From: Azolla caroliniana
Lineage: Eukaryota; Plantae; Polypodiophyta
Reading direction: 5' to 3'
Length of the DNA stretch: 64,000 nucleotides
Assembly (NCBI GenBank): GCA_043228905.1
Contig: JBHGNT010000018.1
Location: forward strand, 9,486,001-9,550,000
Shown: positions 16,213 to 53,675 of the stretch, piece after piece
Layout: each line of letters starts with the position of its first letter
Position numbering within the stretch: the first letter of the stretch is position 1
Made by a program: the position numbers and the translations under genes
Notes under the pieces: model-generated
The model's input: only the letters and a program-made list of their open reading frames with translations
Database searches by the model: none
Told to the model about the DNA's origin: nothing

Positions 16213-18353
16213 CCGGTGTCGAGGTATTCCTCGCGGATGCGTGGAATGAGGCGGGACCTCGGGGGTCTTGTACCGAAGAGCAAGAGAGAAAGGAGAAGGG
16301 AACCCACTACGTGCGAGCGTAGATTCACAGGGACACGGCCCTTCGACACAAAGACGCGAGTGGGACAGAGACACAGAGAGACACGAATGTATGTATGTAT
16401 TAACAAAGACAAACAACAAGAACACGAAGTCGGTTACAACCGAACAGGCCGGCGAACAGATGCCGATGCCTGTTCGTAAACGCACAAAAAGAAAGGAGTA
16501 GGTTGGAGGTGCTGCCGGAAGCACTCGGGCATTCCTCAGAGCAGCGCGAGCCTCCCGAAACCTGCACAGAAAGGAGCTATGGAGTTTGGAAGAGAGAGAA
16601 GCCTTCGGCCCGGAATCCGATAGCACTTCGTCCTCTCTTACTTCGCGATTCCTTCCTCTTCCTCGTCTCCCTCCTTTTCTAGGAAAGAAGGGAGTCGTTT
16701 CCTATTAACTTCCTACCTACCGAATCTGCCTACCTAGGATCTTCTACGTACAACATAAGGCGTAATGCATGAAGAGCCGGTTCCTACGCTCCGGTGCACC
16801 GATTCCGCTTGTGGACGGTTTTCTTCACGACATCCGCCCCCACCTAACCGCACATCCACCAGCATGCGCCAAATTGAGTTGGGACGGAGAAAACCGGTCC
16901 AGCCTTCATTCCTCGCCCGTCGGTTCTTCCTCGGTTTCGGATCGTTCGTCGTCGCGGTCCAGGTTAACCGGATCCGGACTAATGCCTTGACGATCGGTCC
17001 GTGTCCGCGCTCCACCTTTCCATTCGCCTCCGGATTGTACCCAGTGGTAAGCGAGAGCTTGACTCCTAACCGGTCGAACAACTCCTCAGCCTCTTCGGCG
17101 TCCAACTCCCCACGATCAGCCACGATCTTCCCGACGCACCCGTACCGGCATATCACGTCCTCGATCAGGAACCGACATACGGCTGCGGTCGTTTTGTTCT
17201 GAAGGGCCCGACCTTCCACCTGGTTCGTCAGATCTTCCCGAGCCAGGACCAGATACCGCATCTGTCCTACTCCCATCGGCATCGTCACCAGATCTACCAT
17301 CCATTTGAAGTGGATGGTTGGAGGGTACGTAGGGTGAAGCTCGTCCCGATGTCGGACTACGGAGTGCATCTGACAGCTCTCGCAAGTTGTCACGAACTGA
17401 TGCACGTCCCGGTACAATCCTGGCCACCAGTACTTCCCCTTTATCTTCTCGAACGTGGCCCACGTTCCACGGTGTCCAGCCCAAGGGCTGTCGTGGTAGG
17501 CTGTCAACAGCTCCTCCTGTTCTTCCTTCATCGCCACCACCCGGAGTGGGACGCCGTTCCTCTTCTTCGGGTGCTTCCATAAGTATCCGTCCCGGAGAAA
17601 GAATCGATAAGCTTTCTTCCGGATCTGGTTGGCCTCGTCCTTCGTCCATGACGCATCCGGCGTCATTGTCCTTAAAAATCCACCGATCTGGAGCCACTCG
17701 CCGTCGTACTTGCTCTCGTTGAAGTCGTTAAGTGCAGGAGTGCTCGTCCCATCGGTCGTCACGTAGGCCGCCTCGAAGAAGTCCACGCCGACTTCTTCGT
17801 CCTCCGAAACCATGCCGCCCTCGTCATCAAACCTCGCCCTCGAAAGCATGTCGGCCATGGCGTTGTCCTTTCTGGAAATGTGCCGTATTTCCGGATCCAG
17901 GAACTTGATGTACGCTATCCACCTGAGCATCGCCAGGTCCGGTGTCGCGCATCCGGAAACCATGCCGAGAATTGGCAGGCAATCCGTCTCGATAATCACT
18001 TCTGTCCTAATCAGGTAGTCTTTGTCGGCCTTTACTCCCGAAACGATACCCTAGAGTTCGCGTTTAACCTGGGCGTACCCTCGCTGTCACTCACTGAGGA
18101 CCTTCGTGCCGAATCGGATCGGGAACCGAATGCCGTCCCCGTCTTCTTGGTTGACGACCCATCCGATCCCGGTCGGACTCGTATCCACCGTTATGTATAC
18201 CGGGGTACCCTTCTCGTAGACAGCCTTCCGGAGCGCCGGTGCTGCCACAAGAGCTTCCTTCAGCTTCCGGACCGACTCCGTGTGCTCGTCTCGCCACTCG
18301 AATTTTCGCCCTTTCTTCAGCAACCCGTATAGCGGCTCCGCAATGTGGGTAAA

Positions 18354-18928
18354 TGTGAAAGTGTTTTTAGAATTCAAGGTATTGAAGTCTACAAGAATAT
18401 AAGGTATGGTGTGTTCACATCCGGAGGGCAAGATCACGAGCTAAGGTCTTGAGGATAAGTCAAACAAAAAGCAAGTCACGTGGAGAAAAGTAAAAGAAGG
18501 AAAAAGCAGACCACCAAAAAGCAGTCTACAACGAACGCTCATAACTCATTCGTTTGGAAGCCAAATATCACGTGTAAATATGGGTTAGAAAGCTTATGAC
18601 GAGAGTTATCCGTAGCTTTTTAAAACTCTAAATTTGGAGCATGGATGAGGGAGATATGACGATTAGAAGATCGTTGTATCATAGCTAAGAATAGGAGATG
18701 GAAAAGCTCTAAAAAAAGCGTGGAAAAGAAAGCAAGCGAAACTTATCTACTAGAGGAGAACTTCATATAAAGCAAGAAGAGTGAGGTGGTGAGGGGAGCT
18801 TTTTCTTGTGGGGTTTTTCTTGCCTATTCATGTAGCGCGTTTTTCTAGTGATCAATTCATCCTTGTAGGCTTGAGTTTATGTATCTTCTTTCTCTTGTTT
18901 CTATGATCATCACTCCTTATTAATATAT
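18354..18928 (+). repeat. Inverted LTR of a sister subfamily fused tail-to-tail to the gag-only element
   Basis: Reverse complement of 18979-19555; outer ~200 bp clearly diverged, inner ~370 bp near-identical. Confidence 0.88.
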
Positions 18929-21900
18929 GATGATAGAAAAGAGAGAGAAGGAAGATATAGAAACCCAAATCTACAAAGATATATTAATAAGGAGTGATGA
19001 TCATAGAAACAAGAGAAAGAAGATACATAAACTCAAGCCTACAAGGATGAATTGATCACTAGAAAAACGCGCTACATGAATAAGCAAGAAAAACACCACA
19101 AGAAAAAAGCTCTTTTTCACCACCTCACTCTTCTTGCTTTATATGAAGTTCTCCTCTAGTAGATAAGTTTCGCTTGCTTTCTTTTCCACGCTTTTTTTAG
19201 AGCTTTTCCATCTCCTATTCTTAGCTATGACACAACGATCTTCTAATCGTCATATCTCCCTCATCCATGCTCCAAATTTAGAGTTTTAAAAAGCTACGGA
19301 TAACTCTCGTCATAAGCTTTCTAACCCATATTTACACGTGATATTTGGGTGTCAAACGAGAGAGTTATGAGCATTTGTTTCTGACTGCGTTTTGGTGGTC
19401 TGCTTTTTCTCTTTTTAACTTTTCTCCATCTTTATTGCTTTTATTTGGACTTATCCACGAGATGTTAGTTCATGTCCTTGTCCTCCAAATGTGAATCCTC
19501 CATACCTTATATTCTTTTAGTGTCCAATGGCTTGAATTCTAAAAACAGTTTCACATTTAGCCCTCCCCCTTGCTTCTTGGTGAACCATTTATGGTGAACC
19601 CTAAGCTACTAATAAAACTAAAGGTTCTCCTTCGCCTTATTCATGGCTATAGACAAAGAAGGAGAAAATAAATAGAAAAGAAACAAACTATGTGAGTAAA
19701 ACCCCCGCTAGTCGATAGGAAAAACCTCACACTTCTAAACACACACACATACACATTGACAATTGCCATCACCATCTTTCTCCTTGTCAACACAAAGAAA
19801 GAGGTTACAACAATTAGTATATCTTCATCAACTTTCCAAACAGAAGTAGGTCTATGTGATACATAACTCTTGATAGAAGTAAGCATGTTAACATATGAAT
19901 AAATCTTTCGAGCGAGCGAACCTTTTGTACAAATACCTTCAAAGCTTCGAGACTTGTCAGAATTGTCATATTTTGAATTATGTCAATCTTTGCTTCATCA
20001 ACATGACTTTCTTCTTGGCACACCACATTCTCCACATTACCTTGTTTTTTATGTATGACCATTTCATCTAGAATCTCATCTCGAAAAGGAAGCAAAAATA
20101 AATCTCGTTTGGTTGAATCATTCAAGGATTGGAAGTTGACGTCTTTCTCCTTTGGAACAACCACAATAAGTGAGACAAACTTCAAATTCTCCAACTTGAT
20201 GTGGTGCTTGATGCCTTCTACTCTTATCTGTGAATACTCATTTATGAATAACTTTGTAAACTTAAAAAAGAGAGAAATAAACCTTAGATCCTCTTCTCCT
20301 TGGACATCGTTTGAAATCATCTTCTTTTTCCCCTTTAGGGTGATAATACTTTTCTCTTCAATGACTTCTTCTTCCTCCTTAGACACCATGTGGAATGATT
20401 TGTTTTCCCTATCCCACGAATATTCATCAATTGTTATGCTTTCCTCTTCTTGCTTGCCAATGTCGATAGATGATTCCTTCTCCTTTATACATTTGATTAG
20501 TTGTGGTGGATCCTTTGATGGTGATAAGTTAATGATACTCCAATCATGCATTACAAGTAAATCTCTTGGCTCTTGGTCAAATTGTTGTTGAAGAGTTGAT
20601 GCCCACATAACTTTGTTGCTACTCAATGCAAATCCAAAACATAAATCATGCACGAACACCTTCATACACTGCAACTTGGCACTTACCAATGCTTCCTTAC
20701 ACGCATTGATCTCCAAAAGCCAATCTCCAGCTATCACTTCTAGGTTACCTTCTTCATCTTGCAACTTCTTTGTGGGTACTTCACCATCAACAACTTCTTT
20801 TGTCATATCTTCCATTTCATCTTGCACATATTCATCATCAACCACCATATCACTTGTTGTATCAATAATGTCCTCAACATGATGTACATTGGCATCACCA
20901 TCCATAAAATCGCTTCTCATAACTATCTCCTTAGATTCGTCTTTCACATCATCATTCTTTATATCATGGTTGTCCTCATGAACTAGATGGGGGGACTCCA
21001 CATTCATCACCTCTTCTTCATTGTCTCTGGAATCACCTTCATAGACATCATTATAACTCCAAAAATTAGAATAATGATATGAGGGAACCTGTTGAATCGG
21101 ACATTGCAAGTAGGCTGGTTGTTGGCTCATGACCGATCCACAATTATTATAGCTTGGATTTATGGTATATGACGCCGATAATCCATATGCTTCACCGAAT
21201 AACAACTTCTTCAATTGTTGATCATAACTTTGACATACTCGAAGCAAATCATGGAAAGACCTTGGGTACTTCATATGCACTTCATATTGAAAATATGGAT
21301 CTAGCCCTGCTTTGAATCTTTCCATCTTGAAGTATACATCTTCAACGCCTCCAACAAGTCCAATCCAAGTGGACCATATATCCAAAAACGTATTCTCATA
21401 CTCGAGGTAGCACATTGGTGAAACCATACGCAATTGGAAAAGTTCTCTTCGTAGATCTGTCGCATCGCGAACTCCATATCGTGCCATTAGTTTGATGATG
21501 AATCGGTAGATCCAACCATCAATTAGTGGACAACCGTTCCTCCCGTTATACAGAAAGGATCGGCCCTCCCTGGAGCGCCAAAATGAAAAGAGAGATGATG
21601 ATAGAAAAGAGAGAGAAGGAAGATATAGAAACCCAAATCTACAAAGATATATTAATAAGGAGTGATGATCATAGAAACAAGAGAAAGAAGATACATAAAC
21701 TCAAGCCTACAAGGATGAATTGATCACTAGAAAAACGCGCTACATGAATAAGCAAGAAAAACACCACAAGAAAAAAGCTCTTTTTCACCACCTCACTCTT
21801 CTTGCTTTATATGAAGTTCTCCTCTAGTAGATAAGTTTCGCTTGCTTTCTTTTCCACGCTTTTTTTAGAGCTTTTCCATCTCCTATTCTTAGCTATGACA

Positions 21901-22223
21901 CAACGATCTTCTAATCGTCATATCTCCCTCATCCATGCTCCAAATTTAGAGTTTTAAAAAGCTACGGATAACTCTCGTCATAAGCTTTCTAACCCATATT
22001 TACACGTGATATTTGGGTGTCAAACGAGAGAGTTATGAGCATTTGTTTCTGACTGCGTTTTGGTGGTCTGCTTTTTCTCTTTTTAACTTTTCTCCATCTT
22101 TATTGCTTTTATTTGGACTTATCCACGAGATGTTAGTTCATGTCCTTGTCCTCCAAATGTGAATCCTCCATACCTTATATTCTTTTAGTGTCCAATGGCT
22201 TGAATTCTAAAAACAGTTTCACA
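18927..22223 (-). mobile_element. Non-autonomous gag-only LTR element (TR-GAG-like), young
   Basis: LTRs 21584-22223 and 18927-19555 (the latter lacks 11 terminal bp) look identical; PBS TGGCGCTCCAGGGAGGG at 21580-21564 (tRNA-Asn-like); PPT at 19556-19572; no pol. Confidence 0.88.
19814..21487 (-). CDS. 557-aa protein: retrotransposon gag-like N-terminus plus acidic C-terminal region of unknown function
   Basis: Intact ORF filling the internal region; LRRELFQLRM..LEYENTF..ERFKAGLDPYFQYEV resembles the Retrotrans_gag/MHR region. Confidence 0.7.
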   Translation of the reverse strand: MARYGVRDATDLRRELFQLRMVSPMCYLEYENTFLDIWSTWIGLVGGVEDVYFKMERFKAGLDPYFQYEVHMKYPRSFHDLLRVCQSYDQQLKKLLFGEAYGLSASYTINPSYNNCGSVMSQQPAYLQCPIQQVPSYHYSNFWSYNDVYEGDSRDNEEEVMNVESPHLVHEDNHDIKNDDVKDESKEIVMRSDFMDGDANVHHVEDIIDTTSDMVVDDEYVQDEMEDMTKEVVDGEVPTKKLQDEEGNLEVIAGDWLLEINACKEALVSAKLQCMKVFVHDLCFGFALSSNKVMWASTLQQQFDQEPRDLLVMHDWSIINLSPSKDPPQLIKCIKEKESSIDIGKQEEESITIDEYSWDRENKSFHMVSKEEEEVIEEKSIITLKGKKKMISNDVQGEEDLRFISLFFKFTKLFINEYSQIRVEGIKHHIKLENLKFVSLIVVVPKEKDVNFQSLNDSTKRDLFLLPFRDEILDEMVIHKKQGNVENVVCQEESHVDEAKIDIIQNMTILTSLEALKVFVQKVRSLERFIHMLTCLLLSRVMYHIDLLLFGKLMKIY

Positions 22224-23728
22224 GGCGTAATGCGGGATCCATATGTGGTAGAATGCGCATGCCCCGAGGAACCTCCGAACTTCCGTAACCGAGCTACAGT
22301 CGGTCTTCATCACGGAGATGGCTTCTACCTTTGCCGGAGACGGCTTCCGGCCATATGGTCCACATAGGTGTCTGACCACTAGGATTTCTGATTGCCCGAA
22401 GGCCGATTTCTCCCCGGAGAAGGTGAGCCTCGCATCCTCTAGCCTTTGTAGCACCTTCTTGCAGTCGTCGATGTGTGTTGCCACGAATCGCCGTCATCCG
22501 TCCGGTCTGAGTGTTGCGTCCTTCTCTTCTACTGGGCACCCCTTGATTGGAATGTCGTCTAGAAATGGCATGGTGATGTCCGGGATGCAATCCCTCAGTA
22601 CCTTGTTCATTGCATTCACCATGTGGGCCACCGAGTTGGTCCCTCCTTGTGGCAGGGTACACATTTGCACTAGGCCGAGGGGGGTTCGCATCGTCGTAAT
22701 GTCTCTGCTCTCCACGGCTAGCTGGAACTGGTCGTACCCCGAGTATAGATCACCGACCGAGTAAATCGACCTTCCGGCGAAGGCCTCCGCGAACTCGTCT
22801 ATGGTCGGTCCGATTCCTGCGTTCCGAATGGTCACTCTGTTGACCGGCTGCAGGTCTTGAATGAAGCGCAATGTTCTGTTTTTCTTTGGTACGGTAAACC
22901 ATCGGTTCGAGTATGGGGCACTTGACGGTTCGAGAATGCCCATATTGACTTTCTGCCTCAATAGCTCCATCAACTTCGGGATGTGAGCTCTCGGTACTGG
23001 AATCGGCTTGAGATTCCACGGCACATGCGGTACCGAGAATATCACCATCGGCTCCACGATCGTCGGGTCTACGCACCCGATCTCTTCCGATGAGAATGCG
23101 AAGGCTTTCTCGTGCCTTCCGAGCATCCTCCGAAACCGGTCTTCCTCCGCCGGCAGTAGGAACCCACCCCCACCGATTTTGAGCTCCCGAAGCGTTCCGT
23201 CGGTGAAGGTGTGTCCTATGCAGACCGGATCTCGCAAACTGGGGTCCGATGCAACCCCTCTGATCCGGGACTCGCTGCCCTCCGATAAGGGTGCCGCGAC
23301 TGGCCTTACCTTCTGGTCCACAGTCTTGTACTTCGTGCTAACTCGGGCCGTCCGATCCGACCCGAGCCCCCGACTGAAGTTCGCGATGACTTCGTACATA
23401 TCTTCGGAACGTACCGGTATCGTCCGGTCTTCGTTAAGGTCTTCTCTGGCTACCTCCCTCAGCATTCCCAAGGTGTCGTCAAAGGAGACCGCCTCCACGG
23501 CTCCGCTGATTTCCTCGTCTGGGCCGAGAACTCCGTACGCTCGAAGTCGCACTTCCGCCCTTGTCTTTTCTCGGCCAACGATGCCGACTATCATACAACC
23601 TCCGTTGTTGGAGAAGCAAAACTTCCTACCTATCGTACAGGGTTCCTTTGGTTTCGGTTCTATCGTACAGTCGTGGGGTCTTTTCCAAGTGTCCGGGCTG
23701 TCTCGGCCCCACGCCTTGGCAGCCCTCT

Positions 23729-25880
23729 CTAAAAATCCTCCCGGTTCTCGCAACCGAGGGATTCGCGGTTTCGCTCGTGGTTCGGCCGCACCGTCAGAAA
23801 TTGGACCGAATGGCGCCCGTCCTGGCTTTTGACCCTCGCGTAGGCTGAACCGTTGTCCAGCACCTTGGTCTCCATTCGCGCCGCCGTGATGTATGGTTCC
23901 CCTAATATGACCGGGTGCGAGGACGTCTCCTGTACGAAGAAGTGCTGGTCAATCTCGACGTCGCCGATCTTGACTCGCACGTTCGGGCAGGCCCCATGCA
24001 GTTCCTCGGTGGCGCGCGTCGCCGCCCGTATCTTCCACCCGTGCTTGGTGTTGATCGGCCACTTTCCCTTCTTATAGAAGTCCATGGACATTAGGTTTAT
24101 TTCCGAACCGTGGTCCACCAATGCTACCACCGGTTCCTGAACATCTCCGATCTTTACCGGGGTCTCAGTGGTCGCTCGGGCCCATTGCGGCCTTGAATAG
24201 TGGCTCTCCGCCCACTCATCTTCCAGCGCCATGTCGTCGATGTGCGTCGTCCGCACCTCCACCGGTCTTTCCGGTTCCGTCTCCGTCGACAGCCTCTTCC
24301 GTTTCACCAGGTCCACAATGGAGTCGTGGAACTCCTTCTTGGCGATCCCTAGCACCTCTCGCAATGACAGCTCCACTTTGCTGTCGAGGATCCGTTCTTC
24401 TAGGACCTTTCCTAGGTCCGTGGTCCTTTCTATTTCCGTCCCCAGTCGGTATCCGCCCTTCCTGGGGTTATCTTGCGAGCTGGACCCACCGGCATCGTTC
24501 CATCGTTGCCCGAATCGGGTCTCGTACCGTTGTGAGGGCCCGGCCGATCCGGCTTTCCCCACTCGTTTGTCTTCTACCAGAGCCTCGTAGTTCCGGCAGG
24601 CGGCCTCTACGAAGCCCGTCTTCTCCTCGACCGGGTCGCTCCACCCGGTTATTTCCCGGACCCGTCTCTCAGCGCGGTCCGTTTCATCTTTCCTTAGCCG
24701 TGCGCCGGCAAGACCTTCCAGCATTGCCGACCAGAATCCGTCTTTGCCCTCCTTTCGGGCCTCGCTGCCCCCGACCCGAATGCCGGCCGACGCCGAGTAG
24801 TGGATGGCCTCCACGTGTCGGGCCACTGCCTCTTCCATCAGTCTCTTCATTCCTCCTCGCCCATCGTTTCGGTTTAGGGCCCTTCTGGTGTCGCCGGCGT
24901 GCACCCGGCCTTCCCACAGGTACACCACCCGGTTCCTCAACGCTTCTGCGAAATCGCCGTAGTCCTTCCGGATGTGGCCGACCTCGTTGCACCACATGCA
25001 CCTGTTCCCTGCTACCGGCCGTCGGTCACGAGCCGGTTCGCCGCCTTCCCTTCGAGTCTGGGCGATCTGGAGATCCTTTATCGCCCGCGTCAACTCCTCC
25101 AGCGCTGCTCCTTCGGACGAGCCACTGACCATGCCGGTCGAAGCCGGACCTGTTTCGAGCCATTCCCGGGTTTCTTCCCTTCGCCCTTGCGGTGCTCGTT
25201 CAAGCCTCCTTGCTGTGACAGAGCCCGCACCAGCCGCCCCGTTGTCAGCCCATTCTCGCCGTTTGTCGAAACGGCCACATACTCTCTTAACTGCAGCCCA
25301 GTCGGTCGTCAGCCCGTCTCCGGTTTCCAGCAAGGATCCGACTTGATCCCGGTCCCGCTCGTCCACCGACTTGACGAACAGTAGGACCCGGCTCGTATCC
25401 AGAACGGTTCGGTCAAGCGCCGAAAGGCGCGCAAAGCGTTCTTCGAACTCCCGGAGGAGTGCCGACGCGTTTCTTCCCTTGCCGGGGGACTCCACCCATT
25501 CCATGAAGTCCCGTTTCGAAAGCCGGAGCGCGTCGTCCAGCCCGTATTTCTCTAGGAGTCGGCCTTCGAATTCCTCCTAGGTACGGCTCTCCGCCCGTAC
25601 CTCGAGCATCTCCGCATGGATTTTCGGCATCGCCACTCGAGGGAACCCGGCAAGACGCCTCTCTTCCGGAATGTCCCGCATCAGCATTTCGGCCCCGTAG
25701 GACGCCAAATGCTTCGTGGCATCCTTTCCGCTGAACCGGCCGATCGTACCGACGACCGCCTCAATGGCTCTGTCGAGGGCGCCGGAGCCCTCGCGTGCGC
25801 TCAATATCCGATCCACGGCCGAAGCCATGGCCTCCGCAAGATCCGACCCTTTCATCTTCTGCTCTTCTGCCGCCTTGTTC
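23729..25880 (-). pseudogene. Phygy-A gag-protease ORF1 (one internal stop at 25577)
   Basis: CMWCNEVGH knuckle and LVDHGSEIN protease; ends REDF* at a slippery site. Confidence 0.88.
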
Positions 25881-26513
25881 ACGTCGGGTTCACCAAGATG
25901 TCGAGGTATTCCTCGCGGATGCGTGGAATGAGACGGGACCTCGGGGGTCTTGTACCGAAGAGCAAGAGAGAAAGGAGAAGGGAACCCACTACGTGCGAGT
26001 GTAGATTCACAGGGACACGGCCCTTCGACACAAAGACGCGAGTGGGACAGCGACACAGAGAGACACGAATGTATGTATGTATTAACAAAGACAAACAACA
26101 AGAACACGAAGTCGGTTACAACCGAACAGGCCGGCGAACAGATGCCGATGCCTGTTCGTAAACGCACAAAAAGAAAGGAGTAGGTTGGAGGTGCTGCCGG
26201 AAGCACTCGGGCATTCCTTAGAGCAGCGCGAGCCTCCCGAAACCTGCACAGAAAGGAGCTATGGAGTTGGAAGAGAGAGAAGCCTTCGGCCCACAATCTG
26301 ACAGCACTTCGTCCTCTCTTACTTCGCGATTCCTTCCTCTTCCTCGTCTCCCTCCTTTTCTAGGCAAGAAGGGAGCAGTTTCCTATTAACTTCCTACCTA
26401 CTGAATCTGCCTACCTAGGATCTTCTACGTAGAACATAAGGCGTAATGCATGAAGAGCCGGTTCCTACGCTCCGGTGCACCGATTCCGCTTGTGGACGGT
26501 TTTCTTCACGACA

Positions 26514-27688
26514 CCGGGCTCGACCCTATGCTGAAGGGTTCACAGAAGTGGTAGGGAGGGAAATGTTGAAGCGAGGAAGGGGTCCACGATAAAAGATGAC
26601 ATCATCGGGGAGGCCATGCAAACGGATGACATTATTGAGGAGTATATGCGCCATTCCTTTGCCGGAAATGGTTTTTGAGCATGGAGTGAAGTGAGCCATC
26701 TTTGTAAACCGATCAACAACGACCAAAACGAAGTCATAACTATTGACCAAGGGTAGATAAGTTATGAGGTCCGTAGAGATAGAGGCCCATGGACGACTAG
26801 GGCATGGAAACGGCTGAAGCAAGCCATATGGCCGATGATGAGCAACTTTGGAGTGAGTGCAAACCTCACAAGTATTGATGTATTCATTGACTAACTTCCA
26901 TGGTTGTGGCCACCAGTACCCCCGAGAGATTAGTTCGAGGGTTTTTGCAACTCCGAAGTGACCTGCAAGGGGGTCATCGTGGCATTCTCGCAATACCTGA
27001 GTGCGACACGGGCCCTCCGGGACATATAAGAGATGATCGCGGAATAACAAACCATCTTGTATGGTGAAGTGGTCAAGTCCCATCCTTTTCGGTGTCTTGA
27101 AGGGATTTTGTAGACTATCTCGAATCTCGTTGGCAAATGCTTCAGATGTGGATGCATCGGTGATTTGTTGGAGTAATGAATCATCCTGGAACATACAAGT
27201 GACAAAAAGGTGCAATTGGTTGGGTTTCAACAAACAACGAGATTGTTGAGCATGAGCGACATCCCCGGGGCGATTGGCAAATTCAGCCCGACGAGAAAGA
27301 GCATCAGCCTTCCCATGTTGGCCACCAGGTCGAAATACGATCACAAAATCATAGTCGGCGAGAAATATCGACCAACGAGCCAACCTTCAATTCAAAGTAC
27401 GAGTAGTGGAAAAATAAATTAAATTCTTATGATCAATCAATATTTGGACACAATGTTGTGCTCTGGCCAATTAGGGGTGCCATTCTTCAAAGGCTACAAT
27501 GATAGCAGCAAGCTCCTTGTCATATATAGGATAATTGATTTTGGATGCCGTGAATTTGTGAGAGTAATAAGCCACTGGGTGCATTATGTTGGAGTCATTG
27601 GCATGGGATAAAATGGCACCAATGGCGAAGTCAGAGGCATCAGTTTCGACCTGGAAGGGTGATGTGGGGTCGACATGTAGAAGCACGG
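26514..27688 (-). pseudogene. Tcn1-A RNase H and integrase N-terminus/core fragment
   Basis: VETDASDFAIG, YDKELAAI, HDDPLAGHFG..CEVC, VVVDRFTKMAHF. Confidence 0.88.
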
Positions 27689-28917
27689 TGTCGTGAAGAT
27701 CCGTCACTACGTGCGGATCGTGAGGCGGAACCACCAGGGTTCTGGATCGGAAAGATTCGAAGTTTGCACTAGCTTTAGCGAGAAAATATTTAAGATAGAT
27801 TGAAAGAGAGAGAGATTGACATAAGATAGAACGCTTGACTTTTGATTGAGAGAGATTGAAATGGAGAGAGAGAGATTGAGATAAAGATTGAACCTTTGAC
27901 TTTAGATTTGAGGGACAAGATAAATCATCAATTGGATAACGAATTTTCTTCTTTTTTATTAAATTCTTGGTTAATACATCGCTGCCTTTGATATTTTTCA
28001 TCCACTCTTTTATAGACGCCCCCATGCATATGAGGGTACAAGACATGCATACAATGCATGGAATGCATGTGATGCATGTTTGCCATTTGGCGCTCATGCA
28101 TTACATGTGATGCATGATAACCATGTCACTCATTCAAGCTCTAATATGAGAATTTACATGTAAAAGTATAATGATAGAAAAAACATTTCTAAGGAGATGT
28201 TTTAGTTTAGTGGTAAGTCTATTGTCTCTTATCTTGGAAGTGCAAGGTTCAAGCCTTGCTTGCATCCCTTTGTATTAAAACTTTTACTAGGTTTTTTAGT
28301 CTAGATATTTTGTTCGTTTCACACCGAAATCGTCACGATCAACCTATTCGATCGATTCGTCTATACGGTCCGCATTCGACCCGGTGATCTGGTCTATCTG
28401 GTCCGGTTCCAGTGCTGGTCCTGGTCTCGGTTCGGCCACCATTCCAGTTCCGGTTCAGTCGCCGTCCGGTTCCGGTTCCGGCTCTGTCATTGTCTGTCCG
28501 GTTCTGTCGCTAGTTTTGTCACTGTCTGGTCACCCAAAACTGTTACGAGTAGTTAAGCCACAGTTTAGCCCAAGAACATTCCATGTTCCACTCATAAACA
28601 AAAAGTAATAAGTTCTGGCTCTGCTTATATACTGTGGGATCCTGATTTGTCCTATCTATGTGGGATATATCATAGTTTTGTTTTGTTTTGTTCTTCTCAA
28701 ACTTCACATTTACATAACTTGACATTTAGTTGTCCGTTTCAAATGTGGTAAAGTACATTTAGAAGCTCGTGAAGACCTCCATCTTCCCGTACCAAGATAT
28801 TAAGCTAATATAAAATAGTATCTTCACTATTATTGTTTCATGTCTTGTGTGAAGAACCACACTCGATTTTGTACATTCCTCGCAATTTTTACACCATTGC
28901 CGAAAATCTTCACGACA
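27689..28917 (-). mobile_element. Phygy-like solo LTR (1229 bp)
   Basis: 12-bp terminal inverted repeat TGTCGTGAAGAT..ATCTTCACGACA; flanks ACGG/ATAG (decayed 4-bp TSD that restores host TTTPVLLH); U5 motif shared with the other Phygy-like LTRs. Confidence 0.85.
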
Positions 28918-29395: not shown

Positions 29396-32300
29396 TGATG
29401 GAAATAATCGACACTTTCCAAACTTCACCTCTCGGCCACAACCAAGGAAACACACGAATCGTTGTTGCAGAAAATGGGAAATGCAAAGATAAATAAGTGG
29501 ACACACGATTTAACGTGGAAAACCCTGTACGGGAAAAACCACGGGAGTACAAGACTCCGAACCAAAACTATGCACAGAGAAATATACAATGGCGAGCTGC
29601 AAGGCGACGACCTTGAGCTCGCTGTCCTCGCCACAGGCGGCGGAATTACACAGAGGCGTCGACCTCTTCCTCTCTCACACTCTATCTCTCTCACGGCTGC
29701 TCTCTCTTCACTCCTCTTGAGTGGAAAAACAGAAAAATGAGTAGCAATATAAAAACTGTTTGCCCTAAGTCATATTTATACACATATGACTTTAGGGCTA
29801 TTTACAACTATAGCCTCAAGGGCCCTTGGCAAACATATTCACAGATATGTCCCCGCATCCGGATCTCTCTCCGGGTACATTCGTCATCCGGCTCCGAAGC
29901 CGGGGTCTTCATCATCCGGTTCCGAAACCGCAACCGGGCTTGTCGTCATTCATCTCCAGACATCCGACCATCCCATCCGGAGGGACCGTAATCCCAACAA
30001 ACTCCCCCTTCACTTCGGCATGGGATGTCTCTCCAATCCGATCCTCTTCCGGCATGCTTCCAGCTTGTCGGGTGTGAGCACCTTGGTCAGCATATCCGAC
30101 CCGTTCTCGTCCGTGTGGATCTTCGTCAGCACGAACTCCTTGTCTTCTATCCTTTCCCGGATCCAGTGATATCTTCGCTGGATGTGCTTCGTCCGGGAGT
30201 GATAGGCCGCGTTCTTCGCAAGGTGGATTGCACTCTGACTGTCGCAGTAGAGTCGGTACTCCTCCTGCCGGATACCGAGCTCTCTAATGAAGTCCTTCAT
30301 CCATATTATTTCCTTGCCGGCTTCAACAGCCGCCATGTACTCCGCCTCCGTGGTTGACAACGCAACCGTCTTCTGCAGCCTCGACTGCCATGAAACAGCT
30401 CCCCCTGCATACGTCATCACATACCTTGATGTGGACCGGCTGGTATCTGCATCAGCCGACATATCCGAATCGGTGAAGCCGTCGAGTTCGGGCTTACCGG
30501 AGCCGAATCGGAGGCACACGTTTGCCGTGCCCTTCAGGTATCGGAGTATCCACTTGGCCGCGTTCCAATGCTCTTTGCCGGGATTGCTCATGTACCGGCT
30601 CACCACTCCGACTGCATATCCTATGTCCGGTCGGGTACACACCATTGCGTACATCAAGCTCCCGACGGCAGAGGCATATGATACTTTCATCATGTCCTCC
30701 TTCTCAGCCTTTGTCTTGGGGCTCTGCTTGCTGGACAGCTTGCAGTTTGCCGGGAGTGTTGACCCGACCGGTCTTGCTTCCGACATGTTGAACCGGTGAA
30801 GCACCTTTGTCACGTACTTCTCCTGTGACAGCCACAACTGCTTCTTCTTCCGGTCCCGGATGATGTGCATCCCTAGTATTTGCCTCGCCGGACCCAGGTC
30901 CTTCATTGAGAAGGTTCGGTGAAGAGCCTTCTTCAGCATCCGTATCTTGACCTGGTCTCGTCCGACGATCAACATGTCGTCCACGTACAGGAGGAGTATT
31001 AGAAAGTCTCCTCCTTCGAACTTCTTCACAAACACGCAGTGATCGGACTGCGTTTTGTGGTACCCTTCGTCTGTCATGAAGGAGTCGAACTTCCGGTACC
31101 ATTGCCGGGGAGCCTGCTTCAGACCGTAAAGGCTCTTCTTCAACCGGCATACCAGGTGCTCCTTCCCTTTCTTCTCGAATCCTTCCGGTTGCTGCATGTA
31201 GATCTCTTCTTCGAGGTCACCGTGAAGGAATGCCGTCTTCACGTCCATCTGTTCTATCTCGAGGTCCATGCTTGCCGCTATGCTCAGCACCGTCCGGATG
31301 GAGGTCATCTTCACTACCGGGGCAAATATCTCGTCGAAGTCGACGCCCTTCTTCTGCTGAAACCCCTTCACCACGATCCTGGCTTTGTATCTCGGGGGGT
31401 TTCCGGCATCTCCCGGTTTCAGCTTGAACACCCACTTGTTACGGAGTGCCCGTTTTCCTTTCGGCAACTCCACAAGTTCATATGTGTGGTTCTCATGCAG
31501 GGAATCCATCTCCTCCTGCATGGCACTTAACCACCTGCGGCTATGGGTGTCATGCTTCGCTTCTTCAAAGCTCTCCGGCTCCCCCTCGTCGGTTAGCAGC
31601 ACGTGCTCTGGTTCCGGAAATCTCCGGGGAGCCCTTCTCTCTCTTAGAGGATATCTCCGTTCCGGAGCTTCGGTAACCGGTTCTTCCGATTCCTCTTCAT
31701 CCGAATCCATTTCGGGATCGGGGCCGGTTCCGGTATCATTTTCATCTTCTTCGGCCGGTTCTGTTTCTTCACCGTCTTCGGCTGGATCTTCGAGTGTTAA
31801 CCGGTCCCTTGCCGGTCGGGACTGCTCCTCATAGAGTTTATCCTCAGCGGTCGACTTGGAGCTCTTCATCTTCTTCTCCGACTCCCAGTCGGCGAGTGTC
31901 TTGTTCTCCATGAAGATGATATCACGACTCCGGAATATCTTCTTGTCGACCGGGTCCCATACTCGGTAGCCGAACTCGTCATCGCCGTAACCGAGGAATA
32001 TGCATGGCCGGGTCTTTGGATCTAGCTTTCCTCTCCGGTCCTTTGCCACATGCACGTATGCGAGACACCCGAACACCTTCATGTGCCGGTAGGATACTTC
32101 CCTACTGGTCCACACTCTCTGCGGCGTGTCTCCGTCCAAAGGTACTGAGGGTGATCTGTTTATCACGTATGTCGCCGTTGACATCGCCTCAGCCCAAAAC
32201 CCCTTGGGTAATTCCGCATGCGCCAGCATACTCCGGACCCTCTCCATTATGGTCCGGTTCATCCTCTTGGCCAGCCCGTTCAGTTCCGGCGTCTTCGGCA

Positions 32301-42050: not shown

Positions 42051-45000
42051 TGTCGTAGTGTAATTCGCACACTACGTGAAAATTGCATTTTGGTTCCTCT
42101 AGATGGGACAAGGAGGAACTGGTAAGGAGAATCGGTTGAAGGAGGAACCGGATGAAGGAGGAACTGGCAAGGAGGACCCGGTAAGGAGACCTAGATCAAG
42201 CAGAACCAACAAGAGCTGGATAAAGAAGGCCGGTGAGAGTCTCTCACCGGATGAAGAGAAAAATTTGTAAATAGATGAAAAGATTGTTACATGCACAGGA
42301 CAAGATTCGAACCCTGTACCTCCACGTAGACAAACCCCAACCTTGCCATTGTACTAACTTATTCTAAGTGATTTAAATAAAGATTTAATACGTATAAGAC
42401 CTTTATTAAAAGGTAAGTCATGCATTTTTTGAATGCGTGAATACATTATTTATAAGAAAAATGTACACCAATAAAAAAAAATTACTCGTGCGCATCTAGC
42501 GAGCATGAGCACTATATTTAGTAAATAAAAGCATAGTGTAAAAAGCAACTCATGCACATTTAGTGTGCATGAACACTTTAGAAAAAGCACGAAGCTATGC
42601 TTAGCCTCTTCCATCCTTATATAAGGAGGAGAGAAATATGTATGGGGTTGTTGATTATTTTACATGAATTGATCAATCTAATATATTCGTGGGATTCACG
42701 AGTTTATCATCAAAATTCTCTTTCTTACAATCTAAATATTGATTAAATACACAAAACACGTGGGATTCACAAGTTTTATTTCTTACTTCTCTTCTACCTA
42801 TTCATAACTAGCCTTATATTGAATTCTTCTTTCTCCTAGTCCAAAACCTCAGTGGTTCCCACCCGACTCACGCAACGATCCGGAGCCGAAAGGCACATCA
42901 CAAGTGGTGAACCCGACATGAAACCGGGTGGAAAGGAGATGGAAAATCAACCAGGGGCTAACAACATGATGGCGATGTTTGAGTGGATGCTACAAGAACA
43001 ACACGCGATGTTGGAGATTGCGGTGGCAGTAGAGCGGCTTGTGCAACGGAACCAGCAATTCAACGGGAAAGACGTGTCGCGATATTTGCGAGATTACAAG
43101 GCAGAAATGCTACGGTGCGGGATTTCGGAAGGACTGCAAGTGACATCCTTCAACCGCGTGGCGACCGACGGGATTCAAGGGAGTATCCATGGGATACGAC
43201 AACAAAATCCGACGTGGGAGGCATTTGAAGAGGCGCTAAGGACCACCTTCGCCATCGAGGACTCCTCCAAGGCAACGAGGAGGAGATTCGAATATTGGGT
43301 GGAAACACTGGATAAGGGGATGAAGGTCCTTGATGTGTTTTCATCATTTGAAAGTCAGTTTGGGAGGTTGTTTGCGAGAGATCAAGCTATCGTTGCACCG
43401 GAAAAAGTGATCATGTTCCTACGAGTTGTGGATATCCGGCACCAGAAAGATCTTGGAGTGCTTTTGGAGGACACGACCACTGAGAGTGGCCTCGCCGAAA
43501 CATGGGAAAACATGCGGGATATCGTCATGCGATACACGAAGAAGGGGCAATGGCTTGCTAGCGAAGAAAAGAGGGTTTCAGAACCGATTCCGAAACCGAG
43601 ATCCGGTTTGGAAGACCATCAACCAAGGGCTCGGGAGACTACGACCGAGAAGGGAATTGATGCAACCACGGTGGAGCAGTTGTTGAAAGAAATGGAGAAT
43701 CTGAAAATTGCGATGGTAAAGAAGTCTGATGACCGTCCCACAAGCTCCAAGTATATGGACCGTCGGTGCATATGGTGCGATAGCCCTGAACATGATCGGA
43801 GGGATTGCGACGAGCACAAGGAGGCATTACGACGGGATCTTATGTACTACGAGGGAAATCAGATCCATTCAATGGACTCTCGGAAGCCACTCCGATTGAA
43901 CTTCCGGAAAGGCGGCATGAAGAAGGTCCTCGAGGAGGAAATAACAGTGAAAAGCAATTATGTGACAACTGCGGGAATATGTGTTGGGGAGTCATCGGGA
44001 GCAAAGGCGTCTTTTTGGCCGGAAGTGCTAGAAAACCCCAAGAAAACCGATTCCAATGAGATCCGAAGCACTGCGGAAGGCATTTGAGAAGCTACGAAAT
44101 GGGAGTGCCCCATTGATAAGAATAGTGTACACGACGCCCTATGCCAATTGCATGAGGTGTATGTAGACGACAAACGACGGTGCACGGATGATGCGGATGG
44201 ACCATCAAAGACACCAGAAAGCTGGAACTCCGGAGGGAAGGGGAAAGAAAAGACGATTCCGTCATTCAAACTCGCCTCAGACATCGAACAACAAACAGAC
44301 TTGAAAAAAGTGTTCGAGGAGAGAATCCTCGATAGCTGAGTGGAATTTTCGCTTCGGGAATTGCTTGGAATAGCGAAGAAGGAGTTCCATGATCTTCTTG
44401 TGGATCTCGTGAAGAGAAAAAGACAAAGTACGGAGGAGAACGCTCCAAGCGTAAATGCGAACACGGTTTTAATGAATGACACCGAAGTGGAGGACGAAAT
44501 TCCGAACTCCCACTACACAAGGCCACACTGGGCACGTGCAACTACGAAGACTCTGATCCGAATCGGCAACATCAAAGAGCCCGTGCTAGAATTGATTGAT
44601 CACAGATCGGAGATCAATTTGATGTCCAAGGAGTTCTACCGGAAGGGGAAGTGGCCTATAAACACTAACAATGGATGGAAGATCCGTGCAACCACTAAAG
44701 CAATAGAAGACCTATTTGCGGCTTGTTCGGATGTGACGGTGAAGATCGGAGATGTGGAGATAGACCAAAATTTCTTTGTGCAAGATGAGGTCTCACACTC
44801 CGTGATCCTCGGGTAACCCGTTATCACGGCATCATGGATGGAGACGAAGGTGCTCGATAGCGGTGCGGCTTTTGCACAAATTCGGAGTCAAAGCGGAGGG
44901 AAATCCATCCAATTCCTAACTGTGCCTGCGAATCATGTAAGGAACAAGAGAGAGCTCTTGTCCCAAACAAGGATGAATTTTTAGAGTGGATTTTTGCGAA

Positions 45001-48000
45001 GTGGGGAAGTGATAGTCTGAGAAGCCCTGAACCCCACATAGGAAGAAAACTCTCGGAGCAAAACAAATACGAATTGGTCCGGATGGGGCATCTACGTACA
45101 TGGCCATAACTAGAGGAAAGAAGAAAGAATACCGAAAAGTAGAGGATAAGTTGCGGTCGGCATCAATAATAAAAGAAGACGAAGAAATCGTGGGGTTAGT
45201 CGAAGAAGTGTTCTATGGGAACATGCTACAATGGCTTGAAGAGCTTGTGGAGGATAAAAGCCAAGGAGACCGGGTAGTCTCGGTGGAATCGGTCGAGATG
45301 TACTAGATCATTGCGAAAATGGGGCCGGATGTGCTCCACAAAGAAGAAGCAATGGTAAGTACGAAATACAAGACCGTGGAGAAGAAAGTGAAACCGGCCG
45401 TGGGACCGTTACCCGCCGATAGCGAGCAAAACAGGAAAGAAGTCTCGGGAGATCCGACACTTAGGAAGTTCGTGGATATCGGAGATACCTTCACGGATGA
45501 GACCCGGAAGAAACTTCGGATCGGTGGAGGTGGTTTCCTTTTACAAAATGAAGAAGAACAATTCCGTGGGATGTTGGAACAACATGGGAAAGCATTTGCA
45601 TTCACATTGAAGGAGATAGGGTGCGTTGATCCGAAGATAGTGGAGCCGATGGTGATCTTCATGATTGACCATGTGCCGTGGAATCTAAAGCCGATTCCGG
45701 TGCTGCGGGCACATATTCCCAAAATCATTGACTTGCTCAAGGAGAAGGTGGCGATGGGGATTCTAGAGCCATCAAACGCTCCGTACTCAAATCGATGGTT
45801 TACGGTTCCGAAGGAGAATGGGTCACTTTGATTTATCCAAGACTTGCAACCGGTGAACAAGGTCATGATCCGGAACTCCGGAGTCAGTCCGATAGTGGAC
45901 AAATTTGCAGAAGCATTTGCCGGTCGTGCGATATACTCCATTGGAGACCTATACTTAGGGTATGACCAATTCCAACTAGCCATGGAGAGCCGAGACATCA
46001 CTACTATGCGGACACTGATAGGATTAGTCCGAATGTGCACACTACCACAAGAAGCGACAAACTCAGTTGCACATATGATGAGCGCGATGAACAAGGTGCT
46101 TCGAGATTGCATTCCGGAGATAACGATGCCGTTCCTAGATGACATTCCGATGAAAGGATGCGCGGTAGAAGAAAAAGATGAAACTATGGATGATCGGGGA
46201 TGCCGAAAATTCGTAGTCGACCATATTTGTGATTGCAAGAAAGTGCTTCGAAAGTTAGAAGATGTGCACCTAACACTTTCCGGGGAGAAATCGGCATTCG
46301 GGCAAGAAGAGATATTGGTAGTCAGATATCTATGTGGGCCCTACGGCCGAAGACCGTCACCAACCAAGATCAATGCGATTCAAGCTATGAAAGAAGTATG
46401 CGAGTCACAATCTGAAGTCTGAAGGTTTCTTGGAGCTTGTGCATTTTATCGCATATGGATTCCGCACTATGCACATATTGTGGAACCAATCTATCACTTA
46501 TTGTGGAAGGGGAAGAAGTTCAAATGGAAACCGGAACACACCAAAGCCATGAAGAAGCTCAAAGAAACACTACGGAGGGCTGAAGCACTTAAGAAGCCGA
46601 GCTATGAGCGACCGATCATAGAAACCGTTGATACAAGTCCAACCAGGATCGGATGGGTCATCAATGAAATCGGATTGAGGTTATTTGATCGGAGCCGAAG
46701 TAGTGATCGAAACGGATTGTCTTCCGATACTCGGGATGATGCGGTGTTGCACGATACTGTATGTGGCTATGCTAAGATGGATTGCATATGTTAAGTCGCT
46801 TAACCCGGATGTACAACACATCTCCGGAAAAGACAATGCAGTAGCGGATATGCTATCAAGGGCTCAGTTCAGAGACGACATAGCCGAATCCGATAATGAA
46901 GAAGTTTCTCAAAACTACTTTGCTTCGGAGCACATATGCTGAGTAAACGTAATCTGAGAATTCCGAGAAAAAGAATACGAGGGAGACAGCTTGATGATCG
47001 GGAAGGTGCTACAAGAGATTGAGGAATCATTGGACGATAAAGAGAAGAGAGCCGAGATCCGAAGGAAGAAGAGGGAAGTCCAAAAGTTCTTCTTGAAAAA
47101 TGGATTAATATGGAGGGAGCCGAAAAGACTGGATGGCATACTACTTCGGGTAGTCGGGATGAAAGAGCAACGAAACTAGATAATGTCCGAGTTTCACGAA
47201 TCCGATTGGGCTGGACATCGAGGAACATGGACAACTTTTGTGAAAATCAAACAAAAATATTGGTGGAAGAATATGTACAAAGATATAGCGGAGTTCATGA
47301 AAAGCTGCGAGAAGTGTCGAATCTACTCCGGAATTCGACACCGAGATGAGTTACATCCGACATTCTCACCGACAATCAACTTCAAATGGATGGTCGACAT
47401 TGTAGCTATACCAACCGGGATCGGACAAAAGAAGTACTTGGTGTTAGCTCGGGAAGATCTCACAAACCAAGTAGAAGGTCAGGCGCGACGAAGGAGAAAG
47501 TGTTCTGTGGTATGCCAATTTCTTTTGGAGGAGGTGTTTTGCAGGTACGGGTGCGTAGGACAAGTGATTGCGGATCGGGGAGAACTCGACTCTGATAAAG
47601 CTAGGTAATTCTTCACCAAACATGGAGTTCGGTTAACACTAACAACAACATACAATCCGGAGGCCAACGGGAAAATCGAACGAGGACATAGTCCGATCGT
47701 CAAAGCACTTGCCAAAGCATGCGACGGAAGGGCGAAGGATTGGCCGCAAATGTTCCCGTATGCACTATGGGTGGATTGGACGACGCATAGTTCCGTAATC
47801 GGTTATATGCTGATAGAACTTATGACCGGACAAGCACCGGTAATGTCGACGGAAACCGCAATTGCGACATGGACAACGCTGCCGTCGAAGGAAGAGATGA
47901 GCCGAGAAGAAATACTAGCGGTCCAGATACGACAACTGGGGGGAAGACCGGAAGACATAGCGGAAGCAACACGCCGACAATAGGAAGCGGGATTCCGGAA

Positions 48001-49321
48001 CAAAAACTGATTCGAGACAAACCACTGACTATGACCACGGAAGATTGAAGAAGGAGATTGGGGGATTGTCTATGACAGTAGTTTGGATCATCAACATACA
48101 ACGATACGGAAGTTCACAAAAAGGTGGTTCGGGCCATACGAAATTCGGAAAGTTTTCGACAACGGAACTTACCGACTATGCGAATTGGATGGAACGATAC
48201 TACGAGTGCCTATAGCGGGGAAACGGGTAAAGATCTTCAAGAAGCGGACTGACGACGAACCCTATGTAACCCTAGACAAGAGCGACAACGAGGAGCAACC
48301 GGACAAAGATCGTGGTGATGCGGAAAGCGAAGAAAGTGGACTTCAACTCGTAGAGAATCGGAGAGTGCTACGGATGAAAGCGAATAATGAGCATCGGGAA
48401 CTTCGGCACATACTGGAGGATGTGCGGGTTTGGAGGGGGCGAGTGTCGTAGTGTAATTCACACACTACGTGAAAATTGCATTTTGGTTCCTCCGGATGGG
48501 ACAAGGAGGAACCGGTAAGGAGGAACCGGTAAGGAGAACCGGTAAGGAGAACCGGTTGAAGAAGGAACCAGATGGAGGAACAGGCAAGGAGACCCGGTAA
48601 TAACCGGATCAAGCAGAATCGGCAAGAGCTGGATAAAGAAGGCCGGTGAGAGTTTGTCACCGGATGAAGAGAAAAATTTGTAAATAGAAGGAAAGATTGT
48701 TACATGTATAGGGCTGGATTCGACCTCCACGTAAACAAACCCAAACCTTACCATTGTACTAACTTATCCTAAGTGTTTTAAATATATATTTAATACATAT
48801 AAGACCTTTATTTACGCCTACCTTTATTAAAAGGTAAGTCATGCAGTTTTTGAATGTGTGAATACTTTATTTATAAGAAAAATGTACACCAATAAAAAAA
48901 AATTACTCGTGCACATCTAGCGAGCATGAGCACTATATTTAGGAAATAAAAGCATAGTGTAAAAAGCAACTCATGCACATTTAGTGTGCATGAACACTTT
49001 AGAAAAAGCACGAAGCTATGCTTAGCCTCTTCCATCCTTATATAAGGAGGAGAGAAATATGTATGGGGTTGTTGATTATTTTACATGAATTGATCAATCT
49101 AATATATTCGTAGGATTCACGAGTTTATCATCAAAATTCTCTTTCTTACAATCTAAATATTGATTAAATACACAAAACACGTGGGATTCACAAGTTTTAT
49201 TTCTTACTTCTCTTCTACCTATTCATAACTAGCCTTATATTGAATTCTTCTTTCTCCTAGTCCAAAACCTCAGTGGTTCCCACCCGGCTCACGCAACGAT
49301 CCGGAGCCAAAAGGCATGACA
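42051..49321 (+). mobile_element. Phygy-like Ty3/gypsy element B, degenerate
   Basis: LTRs 42051-42900 and 48444-49321, PBS TGGTGAACCCGACATGA at 42905-42921, PPT ggagggggcgag, flanks GCAC/ACGC (decayed GCGC). Confidence 0.92.
42918..48440 (+). pseudogene. Phygy-B gag-PR and RT-RH-INT with many premature stops
   Basis: CIWCDSPEH, IDHRSEIN, FLDD, HESDWAGHRG, WFGPY. Confidence 0.9.
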
Positions 49322-52561: not shown

Positions 52562-52661
52562 NNNNNNNNNNNNNNNNNNNNNNNNNNNNNNNNNNNNNNN
52601 NNNNNNNNNNNNNNNNNNNNNNNNNNNNNNNNNNNNNNNNNNNNNNNNNNNNNNNNNNNNN
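52562..52661. other. Assembly gap (100 N)
   Basis: Run of N. Confidence 1.
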
Positions 52662-52692: not shown

Positions 52693-52875
52693 GAAATCCG
52701 ATGCATTGCATCGGATTTCTTTTGAAAATTCATTATTTTCAATTTCTATATAGTTATTTATGAGAAAATAGACAAACAAAATACCAAAAAAATTCTAAAA
52801 ACTATGAAAATTTGGAAAAAAATAAGAAAAAGTGGATTTTCTACGGAAATCCGATGCAGTGCATCAGATTTCCAT
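52693..52875. repeat. Two copies of the palindrome GAAATCCGATGCA.TGCATCGGATTTC in AT-rich DNA
   Basis: Hairpins at ~52693-52719 and ~52846-52872. Confidence 0.7.
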
Positions 52876-53675
52876 TGAAATCTATTTTTTATAGAAAAAA
52901 TTCAAAAAAATTCAAAAAAATTCAAGAAAAAAAGCAAATTTGGAAGAAAATACGTTGTCGTAGTGTATTCCACACACTACGTGAAAACCATAAAATAATA
53001 TATCCGAATTTAGATACATATAAATAATAAATAATATATCAAAAGAATTTATCACGTGCATAGGGCAAGATTCAAACCATGCACCTCCACGTAGATAAAC
53101 CCCAACTTTACCATTGTAATAACTATCTTTAGTGGTTATAAATATAGATTTAATACGTATAAGACCTTTATTTACACATACCTTTATTAAAAGGTAAAAA
53201 TCATGTATTCTTTAGAGTGTGAATATTTTATTTACACGTGACATTAAAAGTGACTCATGCACGTCTAGCGTGCACGAGCCCTATATTTAGGAAATGACAA
53301 AACATCACATGCACATTTAGTGTGCATGGGCACTTTAGGTGAAAAAGCATGAAGCCATGCTTAGCCTCTTCCTTCTTTATATAAGGAGGAGAAAAATATG
53401 TATATGGTTGTTGATTAATATAGAAGAATTGATCAATCTAATAGATTCGGGGGATTCACGAATTTTGCCATCTAATTGCTCTAATAATCTAAATATTGTT
53501 TTAATTACACTAAACTCGTGGGATTCACGAGGTTACTATCTTACTTCTCTTCCTATTATTCATAACTAGCCTTAAGTTGTATTCCTCTTCCTCCTAGTCC
53601 AAAACCTCGGCGGTTCCCACCCGACTCACGCAACGATCCGGAGCCGAAGGGCACGACACAGTTGGTGAACCCGAC

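What the first reader, a model, noticed from the sequence alone, without database searches (positions are those of the whole stretch)
16213..52955. All five Phygy-like insertions hit NCGN sites with 4-bp TSDs: apparent CpG-targeted integration
Seen: flanks are CCGG/CCGG (16213, 26514), ACGC/ACGC (35107, 36128), ACGG/ATAG (27685, 28918), GCAC/ACGC (42047, 49322) and a left flank ACGT (52952). The two mismatched pairs reduce to ACGG and GCGC by transitions, and a 4-bp duplication restores the host frames (TTTPVLLH and QTCASVV). The 52952 site is an isolated CG in very AT-rich DNA. All other elements here have 5-bp TSDs without this pattern (GTTGC, TTATG, ATTAG, GGTGA, GGGAG, GTATA, CCAAC). Known: plant LTR elements usually make 5-bp, weakly specific TSDs, while sequence-specific 4-bp TSDs occur in insect errantiviruses. 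Inference: this integrase, in which I see no chromodomain, reads a central CG, possibly methyl-CG. That would be a route to heterochromatin targeting independent of histone reading.
Basis: partly seen in the sequence, partly recalled or inferred. Interest (0 to 1): 0.8.

Follow-up and report, generated by a model that had tools for sequence, protein, structure and literature searches.

The report
Moss retrotransposons that insert at CG
These Phygy-type jumping genes insert at four-letter sites with CG in the middle, a habit already published for moss Phygy elements, and the choice is likely made by the insertion enzyme reading the DNA letters themselves rather than a methyl mark.

Summary
Neumann et al. 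2019 (PMC6317226) list Phygy as 186 elements, '4 bp (100%) (NCGN)', tRNA-Trp primer, no chromodomain. Here 407 of 452 outer LTR ends of one family have a central CG, against 3.3% of background positions. Non-CG centres are nearly all CA or TG and arise at the rate LTR CGs decay, so the original target was close to always CG. The motif refines to V-CG-B (150 of 152): T first and A last are avoided, the same rule described for retroviruses with 4-bp duplications. That favours readout of sequence and shape by the integrase. The methyl-CG idea got no support: Phygy flanks lie in repeats no more often than flanks of two CG-indifferent LTR families (p=0.66), no methyl-reader domain was found, and one copy sits about 0.6 kb upstream of a housekeeping gene. 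No methylation data were available, so methyl-CG reading is untested, not excluded.

The parts
16217..26513 (-). E1: Phygy-type Ty3/gypsy element (family A), LTRs 16217-16832 and 25899-26513 (97.7% alike), tRNA-Trp PBS, integrase cut short, another element nested at 18354-22223; sits in a chromovirus integrase
16213..16216 (.). E1 left TSD CCGG
26514..26517 (.). E1 right TSD CCGG
27689..28917 (-). E2: solo LTR of a related family, flanks ACGG (27685-27688) and ATAG (28918-28921), in a chromovirus RNase H region
35111..36127 (-). E3: solo LTR of a related family, flanks ACGC/ACGC (35107-35110, 36128-36131)
42051..49321 (+). E4: degenerate two-LTR Phygy-type element (3' LTR 48444-49321), tRNA-Trp-type PBS, pol with the whole integrase C-terminus and no chromodomain; flanks GCAC (42047-42050) and ACGC (49322-49325)
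52956..62778 (+). E5: relative of E4 (5' LTR 52956-53658, tRNA-Trp PBS), interrupted by copia insertions at 55978 and near 63035; left flank ACGT (52952-52955); right end not in the window
3610..13344 (+). Control: gypsy element with 5-bp TSD GTTGC (family called G5 here; lineage not assigned)
29396..34717 (-). Control: copia element with 5-bp TSD ATTAG

Best explanation
These are Phygy-type Ty3/gypsy LTR retrotransposons that insert into 4-bp sites of the form V-CG-B, and the integrase complex likely picks the site by reading DNA sequence and bendability directly, with no need for methylation. Shown: 4-bp duplication, central CG, avoidance of T first and A last, DDE integrase without chromodomain. 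Inferred: a 4-bp stagger forces a sharp bend at the central step, which favours a pyrimidine-purine step as in retroviruses with 4-bp duplications; base contacts from the integrase would narrow that step to CG; T at the first position would be avoided through the known C5-methyl clash at the joining site. After insertion the duplicated CG is likely methylated with the element and decays to CA or TG. Because young transposons are CG-rich, a methylation-blind CG rule by itself would tilt insertions toward repeats.
For: 407 of 452 outer ends of family A have central CG; 152 of 186 outer junctions over four families, with 29 more CA, TG or TA; background 3.3%. 12 of 18 full elements have identical 4-bp copies and all 18 have NCGN on at least one side. 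V-CG-B in 150 of 152 although T-first and A-last are each 34% of background CGs. Serrao 2015 (PMC4422553; abstract, sections 6 and 14 read) reports central YR preference and T/A avoidance at positions 0/+3 for 4-bp retroviruses, largely independent of chromatin. ZAM integrase binds CGCGCg oligonucleotides in vitro (PMC2527525; abstract and passages). The predicted integrase (pLDDT 88) matches PFV and Ty3 integrases best. TSD CG loss 5 of 79 copies (6.3%) equals LTR CG loss (105 of 903 differ between LTR pairs, 5.8% per copy). Weighting random sites by the TSD motif raises repeat landing from 327 of 600 to 433 of 600. Phygy flanks (198 of 224 in repeats) do not differ from control families (55 of 64), p=0.66.
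Against: Family A flanks are in repeats more often (106 of 115) than motif-weighted random sites (433 of 600; p=9e-7), so sequence alone does not explain where surviving copies lie; the controls show a similar excess over uniform sites, which points to selection or a shared bias but does not prove it. Bendability alone would admit CA, TG and TA, yet these are nearly absent as true targets, so something more specific is needed and I did not identify the residues. One element has ACAC on both sides (L229). No biochemical or methylome data were examined. In ZAM the CGCGCG site was not sufficient for nicking, so that precedent is partial.
Confidence: 0.72

Rival explanations
1. The integrase reads methyl-CG (needs or strongly prefers 5mC at the central step) and so steers itself into methylated heterochromatin without a histone reader.
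For: Strict CG centre; 106 of 115 family A flanks in repeats; all five window copies sit in a nest of transposons; moss methylation is mostly on transposons (bioRxiv 2020.03.04.971267, passages). A 1992 study on CpG methylation and retroviral integration exists (title seen only in a reference list; text not held).
Against: No excess of repeat landing over CG-indifferent families (p=0.66 all, p=0.20 family A; controls are few, 64 flanks). No MBD, SRA or chromo match in Pfam scans of the polyprotein and 22 relatives. One copy (TSD CCAG/CCGG) lies about 615 bases upstream of the likely start codon of a glutamyl-tRNA synthetase gene, DNA that is likely unmethylated (inferred, single case, not measured). 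TG/CA, which present a 5-methyl group like mCG, are not used as targets in 6 of 7 checked cases.
Confidence: 0.12
2. CG is read as sequence, and a separate host tether or chromatin feature adds a regional bias toward heterochromatin; methylation only modulates efficiency.
For: Excess of repeat flanks over the motif-weighted background. The integrase has an uncharacterised helical linker (about residues 255-294) and an SH3-like C-terminal beta domain with an acidic tail. Phygy nests often in Tcn1 in P. patens (PMC6911290, passages).
Against: Controls show the same excess; fixed insertions are filtered by selection; no reader domain found.
Confidence: 0.14
3. The pattern is chance, a boundary error, or survival bias.
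For: Only five sites in the window, two with mismatched copies.
Against: 407 of 452 genome-wide; control families carry CG anywhere in the 5-bp flank in 3 of 37 and 4 of 27 junctions; LTR ends fixed by LTR-pair alignment, PBS and PPT.
Confidence: 0.01

Closest known systems
Phygy clade (non-chromovirus Ty3/gypsy, REXdb; Neumann et al. 2019, PMC6317226)
   Same: 4-bp NCGN TSD, tRNA-Trp PBS, no extra domain in the polyprotein, coding region filling most of the interior.
   Different: Elements here are 6.7-7.3 kb against 7,656-9,968 bp in P. patens; I refine NCGN to V-CG-B; no tree against REXdb references could be built.
Retroviral intasomes with 4-bp duplications (PFV, MoMLV, PERV, XMRV; Serrao 2015, PMC4422553)
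   Same: 4-bp stagger, central pyrimidine-purine step, T and A avoided at the first and last TSD positions; PFV integrase is the top sequence and fold match.
   Different: Their preference is weak (central YR about 63% above random) and admits all YR steps; here it is near-absolute and CG only.
ZAM subgroup of Drosophila errantiviruses (PMC2527525, PMC5408687)
   Same: Gypsy integrase with a CG-centred palindromic target (CGCG); direct DNA binding shown in vitro.
   Different: Different lineage, longer CGCGCg consensus plus a second binding site; that Drosophila has little CG methylation is recalled, not checked.
Chromoviruses (Tcn1 / RLG1 of mosses)
   Same: Ty3/gypsy, accumulate in transposon islands, host several of these insertions.
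   Different: Carry a chromodomain and make 5-bp TSDs without a motif.

Membership tests
Phygy | Ty3/gypsy order of domains RT-RH-INT | tested here: met
   (families A and E4/E5; coding parts of E2 and E3 families not examined)
Phygy | 4-bp TSD | tested here: met
   12 of 18 full elements identical; 25 of 51 paired sites identical and 19 more match at 3 of 4
Phygy | NCGN target motif | tested here: met
   407 of 452; by family 74 of 79, 30 of 39, 30 of 45, 18 of 23
Phygy | tRNA-Trp primer binding site | tested here: met
   PBS; its complement ends tRNA-Trp(CCA) genes of this genome in 6 of 6 loci scanned (63 matches in all)
Phygy | No chromodomain, no archaeal RNase H, no extra ORF | tested here: met
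   Pfam on two uninterrupted pol frames; window chromodomains hit 0 of 18 full elements, nor E1 or E4, and did hit the positive control. Extra ORFs judged from element length and ORF lists only
Phygy | Monophyly with REXdb Phygy RT/RH/INT sequences (the formal definition) | not testable with these tools
   No REXdb reference sequences were at hand; nearest named relatives are Riccia proteins at up to 65% identity over the whole integrase
Phygy | Length 7,656-9,968 bp (descriptive range from P. patens, not a criterion) | tested here: not met
   6,706-7,040 bp in 18 family A elements, 7,271 bp for E4
Chromovirus (Tcn1) | Chromodomain at the integrase C-terminus and 5-bp TSD | tested here: not met
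Methyl-CG-reading integrase (proposed) | Known methyl-cytosine reader domain (MBD, SRA) | tested here: not met
   No such Pfam match in 23 proteins or among the listed fold matches
Methyl-CG-reading integrase (proposed) | Landing in methylated DNA beyond other LTR families | tested here: inconclusive
   No difference by a repeat proxy (p=0.66); proxy only, small controls
Methyl-CG-reading integrase (proposed) | Dependence on 5mC in vitro or in met1 | not testable with these tools
   Needs methylome or bench data

The most novel reading that the evidence does not exclude
The Phygy integrase core itself reads 5-methyl-CG, giving a DNA-methylation-guided route into heterochromatin without any histone reader; my searches found no report of this for a retrotransposon.
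Probability: 0.12. Interest if true: 0.75.

Novelty: already known. Interest (0 to 1): 0.2.

Why it matters
As a discovery it matters little: the NCGN preference of Phygy is in print. What this check adds is modest: the rule holds in four families of another bryophyte-like genome, it narrows to V-CG-B, exceptions are explained by later decay of methylated CG, and the outer-base rule ties it to known intasome geometry. Phygy remains the only plant LTR lineage with a sequence-specific target according to Neumann 2019, and I found no paper on its mechanism. It is therefore a clean system to ask how an integrase turns a weak bend preference into strict CG choice and whether 5mC matters; if it did, that would be a new kind of heterochromatin targeting.

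Tried and rejected
A recalled claim that D-CGA sites are under-methylated in moss would have turned the A-last avoidance into a test of methyl reading; I could not find it and dropped it. I looked for relatives in organisms without CG methylation: papers on Ylt1 gave no target motif; metagenome relatives were mostly collapsed contigs, and only 2 of 80 gave a readable LTR-start flank in a self-match screen (GCGG, CCGT), of unknown host. Of 20 distant relatives looked up, 8 clusters had names (Chara, fungi, a nematode, an arachnid), with no DNA for TSDs. Nine non-repeat family A flanks were examined: one lies near a host gene, two near other retroelements, the rest were unresolved. Earlier scan findings were not available. 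TG/CA as true targets: of 10 non-CG left flanks chosen, 7 had a recoverable other end, 6 of them CG, 1 ACAC/ACAC. Neumann's per-element table was not among the supplement files searched (5 files, 17,418 characters) and may already show the V-CG-B bias. ARAGORN found no tRNA in the window.

Full report
Observation. There are two two-LTR elements (16217-26513, 42051-49321), two solo LTRs (27689-28917, 35111-36127) and one element whose right end is not in the window (from 52956). The host frames stay in register with a 4-bp duplication. The CG at 52952 lies in 23% GC DNA but has four other CGs within 300 bases. The other LTR elements have 5-bp duplications; one copia element also begins TGTCG.

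Genome-wide test. The window lies in a 523-Mb assembly. An exact 20-base LTR start of family A occurs 823 times; 371 are inner junctions next to the primer site and 407 of the other 452 have CG at the TSD centre. This is a lower bound, since mutated inner junctions remain among the 45. CG makes up 3.3% of positions in 60 evenly spaced 10-kb stretches. From fetched loci of four families, after dropping inner junctions, duplicates and the 20 loci I picked for odd flanks, 152 of 186 outer junctions are CG-centred, 19 CA, 9 TG, 1 TA and 5 other; one of the five is an inner junction that slipped through (L163), and both ends of one insertion can be counted, so 186 is not a count of independent events. 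Control families have CG anywhere in their 5-bp flank in 3 of 37 and 4 of 27 junctions. Of 20 element pairs fetched, 18 gave both ends: 12 have identical 4-bp copies and all 18 have NCGN on at least one side.

Exceptions. In 18 LTR pairs, 105 of 903 CG dinucleotides differ against 138 of 9,628 other sites, that is 5.8% loss per copy; TSD CGs of family A are lost in 5 of 79 copies, 6.3%. Of 10 non-CG flanks followed up, 7 had a second end and 6 of these were CG there; one was ACAC on both sides. So the target was close to always CG, and it was methylated after insertion (inferred). This says nothing about its state before insertion.

Refined motif. Among CG-centred junctions 150 of 152 are V-CG-B, although T-first and A-last each make up 34% of background CGs. 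They are disfavoured, not barred: TCGT/TCGT and ACGA/ACGA duplications exist, and hand counts of listed matches give 3 of 100 T-first and 6 of 100 A-last (one of them a mutated inner junction).

The element. An uninterrupted family A copy has overlapping gag and pol frames, DUF4100 in gag, RT, RNase H, H2C2 and integrase core in pol, and no chromodomain. Window chromodomains hit none of 18 full elements, nor E1 or E4, but hit the positive control. E1's own integrase stops at residue 1023 of 1227. The primer site is complementary to this genome's tRNA-Trp. The DDE residues are invariant over 30 aligned relatives. The model (pLDDT 88) matches PFV and Ty3 integrases best (sequence search). The nearest named relatives are from Riccia, up to 65% identity; more distant ones come from Chara and fungi. 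That the host is a moss or other bryophyte is inferred from these traits.

What is known. Neumann et al. [quoted passage not shown] Jedlicka et al. 2019 (PMC6911290; passages) confirm 4-bp TSDs for Phygy, CG-rich centres of 4-bp TSDs and nesting in Tcn1. The finding is therefore a re-observation. Formal membership by phylogeny was not testable, and the elements here are shorter than the published range.

Mechanism. Serrao et al. 2015 (PMC4422553; abstract, sections 6 and 14) show that retroviruses with 4-bp duplications favour a central YR step and avoid T and A at the first and last positions, largely independent of chromatin, with a C5-methyl clash modelled as the reason for T avoidance. V-CG-B is an extreme form of that signature. 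ZAM integrase binds its CG-centred site directly in vitro (PMC2527525; abstract and passages; review PMC5408687, passages). I therefore favour readout of sequence and shape by the integrase (0.72). The contacts that narrow YR to CG are not identified.

Methyl-CG and heterochromatin. By a repeat proxy on 300-base flanks, family A lands in repeats in 106 of 115 flanks, older Phygy families in 92 of 109, copia in 31 of 37, the 5-bp gypsy family in 24 of 27, motif-weighted random sites in 433 of 600 and uniform sites in 327 of 600 (this set includes the 20 picked loci). Phygy exceeds the weighted background (p=9e-7) but not the controls (p=0.66; family A alone p=0.20). Thus a CG rule alone shifts landing toward repeats, and the rest is shared with families that ignore CG. 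One copy, TSD CCAG/CCGG, lies about 615 bases upstream of the likely start of a glutamyl-tRNA synthetase gene, mild evidence against a strict need for methylation. The proxy is coarse, the controls few, and surviving copies are filtered by selection, so methyl reading is unsupported rather than refuted (0.12). Three full-text searches showed no paper testing it (listings only; subscription journals are not covered). Other papers seen: PMC7466625, PMC6453930, PMC2864245, PMC5014426 and bioRxiv 2020.03.04.971267 as passages; PMC9994747 gave no hits for my terms.

Verdict. Real, already known, interest 0.2. The open and testable part is whether 5mC matters to this integrase.

Noticed in passing
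window 18354-22223: Element nested in E1's RNase H region: two identical direct LTR-like repeats (18927-19555, 21595-22223) plus a third, inverted copy (18354-18928, 91%), a 628-aa frame with no Pfam match (19814-21700, minus) and no obvious TSD.
   Followed up: partly
window 55978-61422: Copia element whose identical LTRs also begin TGTCG but which has a 5-bp TSD (GGGAG); it would contaminate a TGTCG-based screen.
   Followed up: yes
window 37913-38410: Three tandem 166-bp copies covering a chromovirus chromodomain-coding stretch.
   Followed up: no
protein P0112 (unnamed source): A relative with 44% integrase identity carries a C-terminal PHD finger, a possible histone reader on this lineage.
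   Followed up: no
proteins P0022-P0026, P0131, P0200, P0232, P0234, P0252: Relatives occur in Riccia, Chara and fungi, several sharing DUF4100, although Phygy was described as specific to P. patens.
   Followed up: partly
L364:1-983 and L371 (G000:C8 near 12,746,100): Family A element about 615 bases upstream of a glutamyl-tRNA synthetase gene, with a copia LTR nested inside it.
   Followed up: partly
G000:C8 17.80-17.82 Mb and C16 4.99-5.11 Mb: Clusters of tRNA-Trp-like matches, spaced about 1.2 kb apart on C8; 63 matches genome-wide.
   Followed up: no
L162, L197, L332, L358 (contig C257): A small contig repeats this window's nest at 94-99% identity, with ATGG in place of ACGG at the E2 left flank; a duplicate or second haplotype.
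   Followed up: no
TSD pairs such as L034, L036, L230: The last TSD base is often T on the left copy and C on the right; a C followed by the LTR's TG forms a CHG site that would be methylated and decay (inferred).
   Followed up: partly
window 52562-52661: A 100-base gap of N just left of the AT-rich stretch that holds E5.
   Followed up: no
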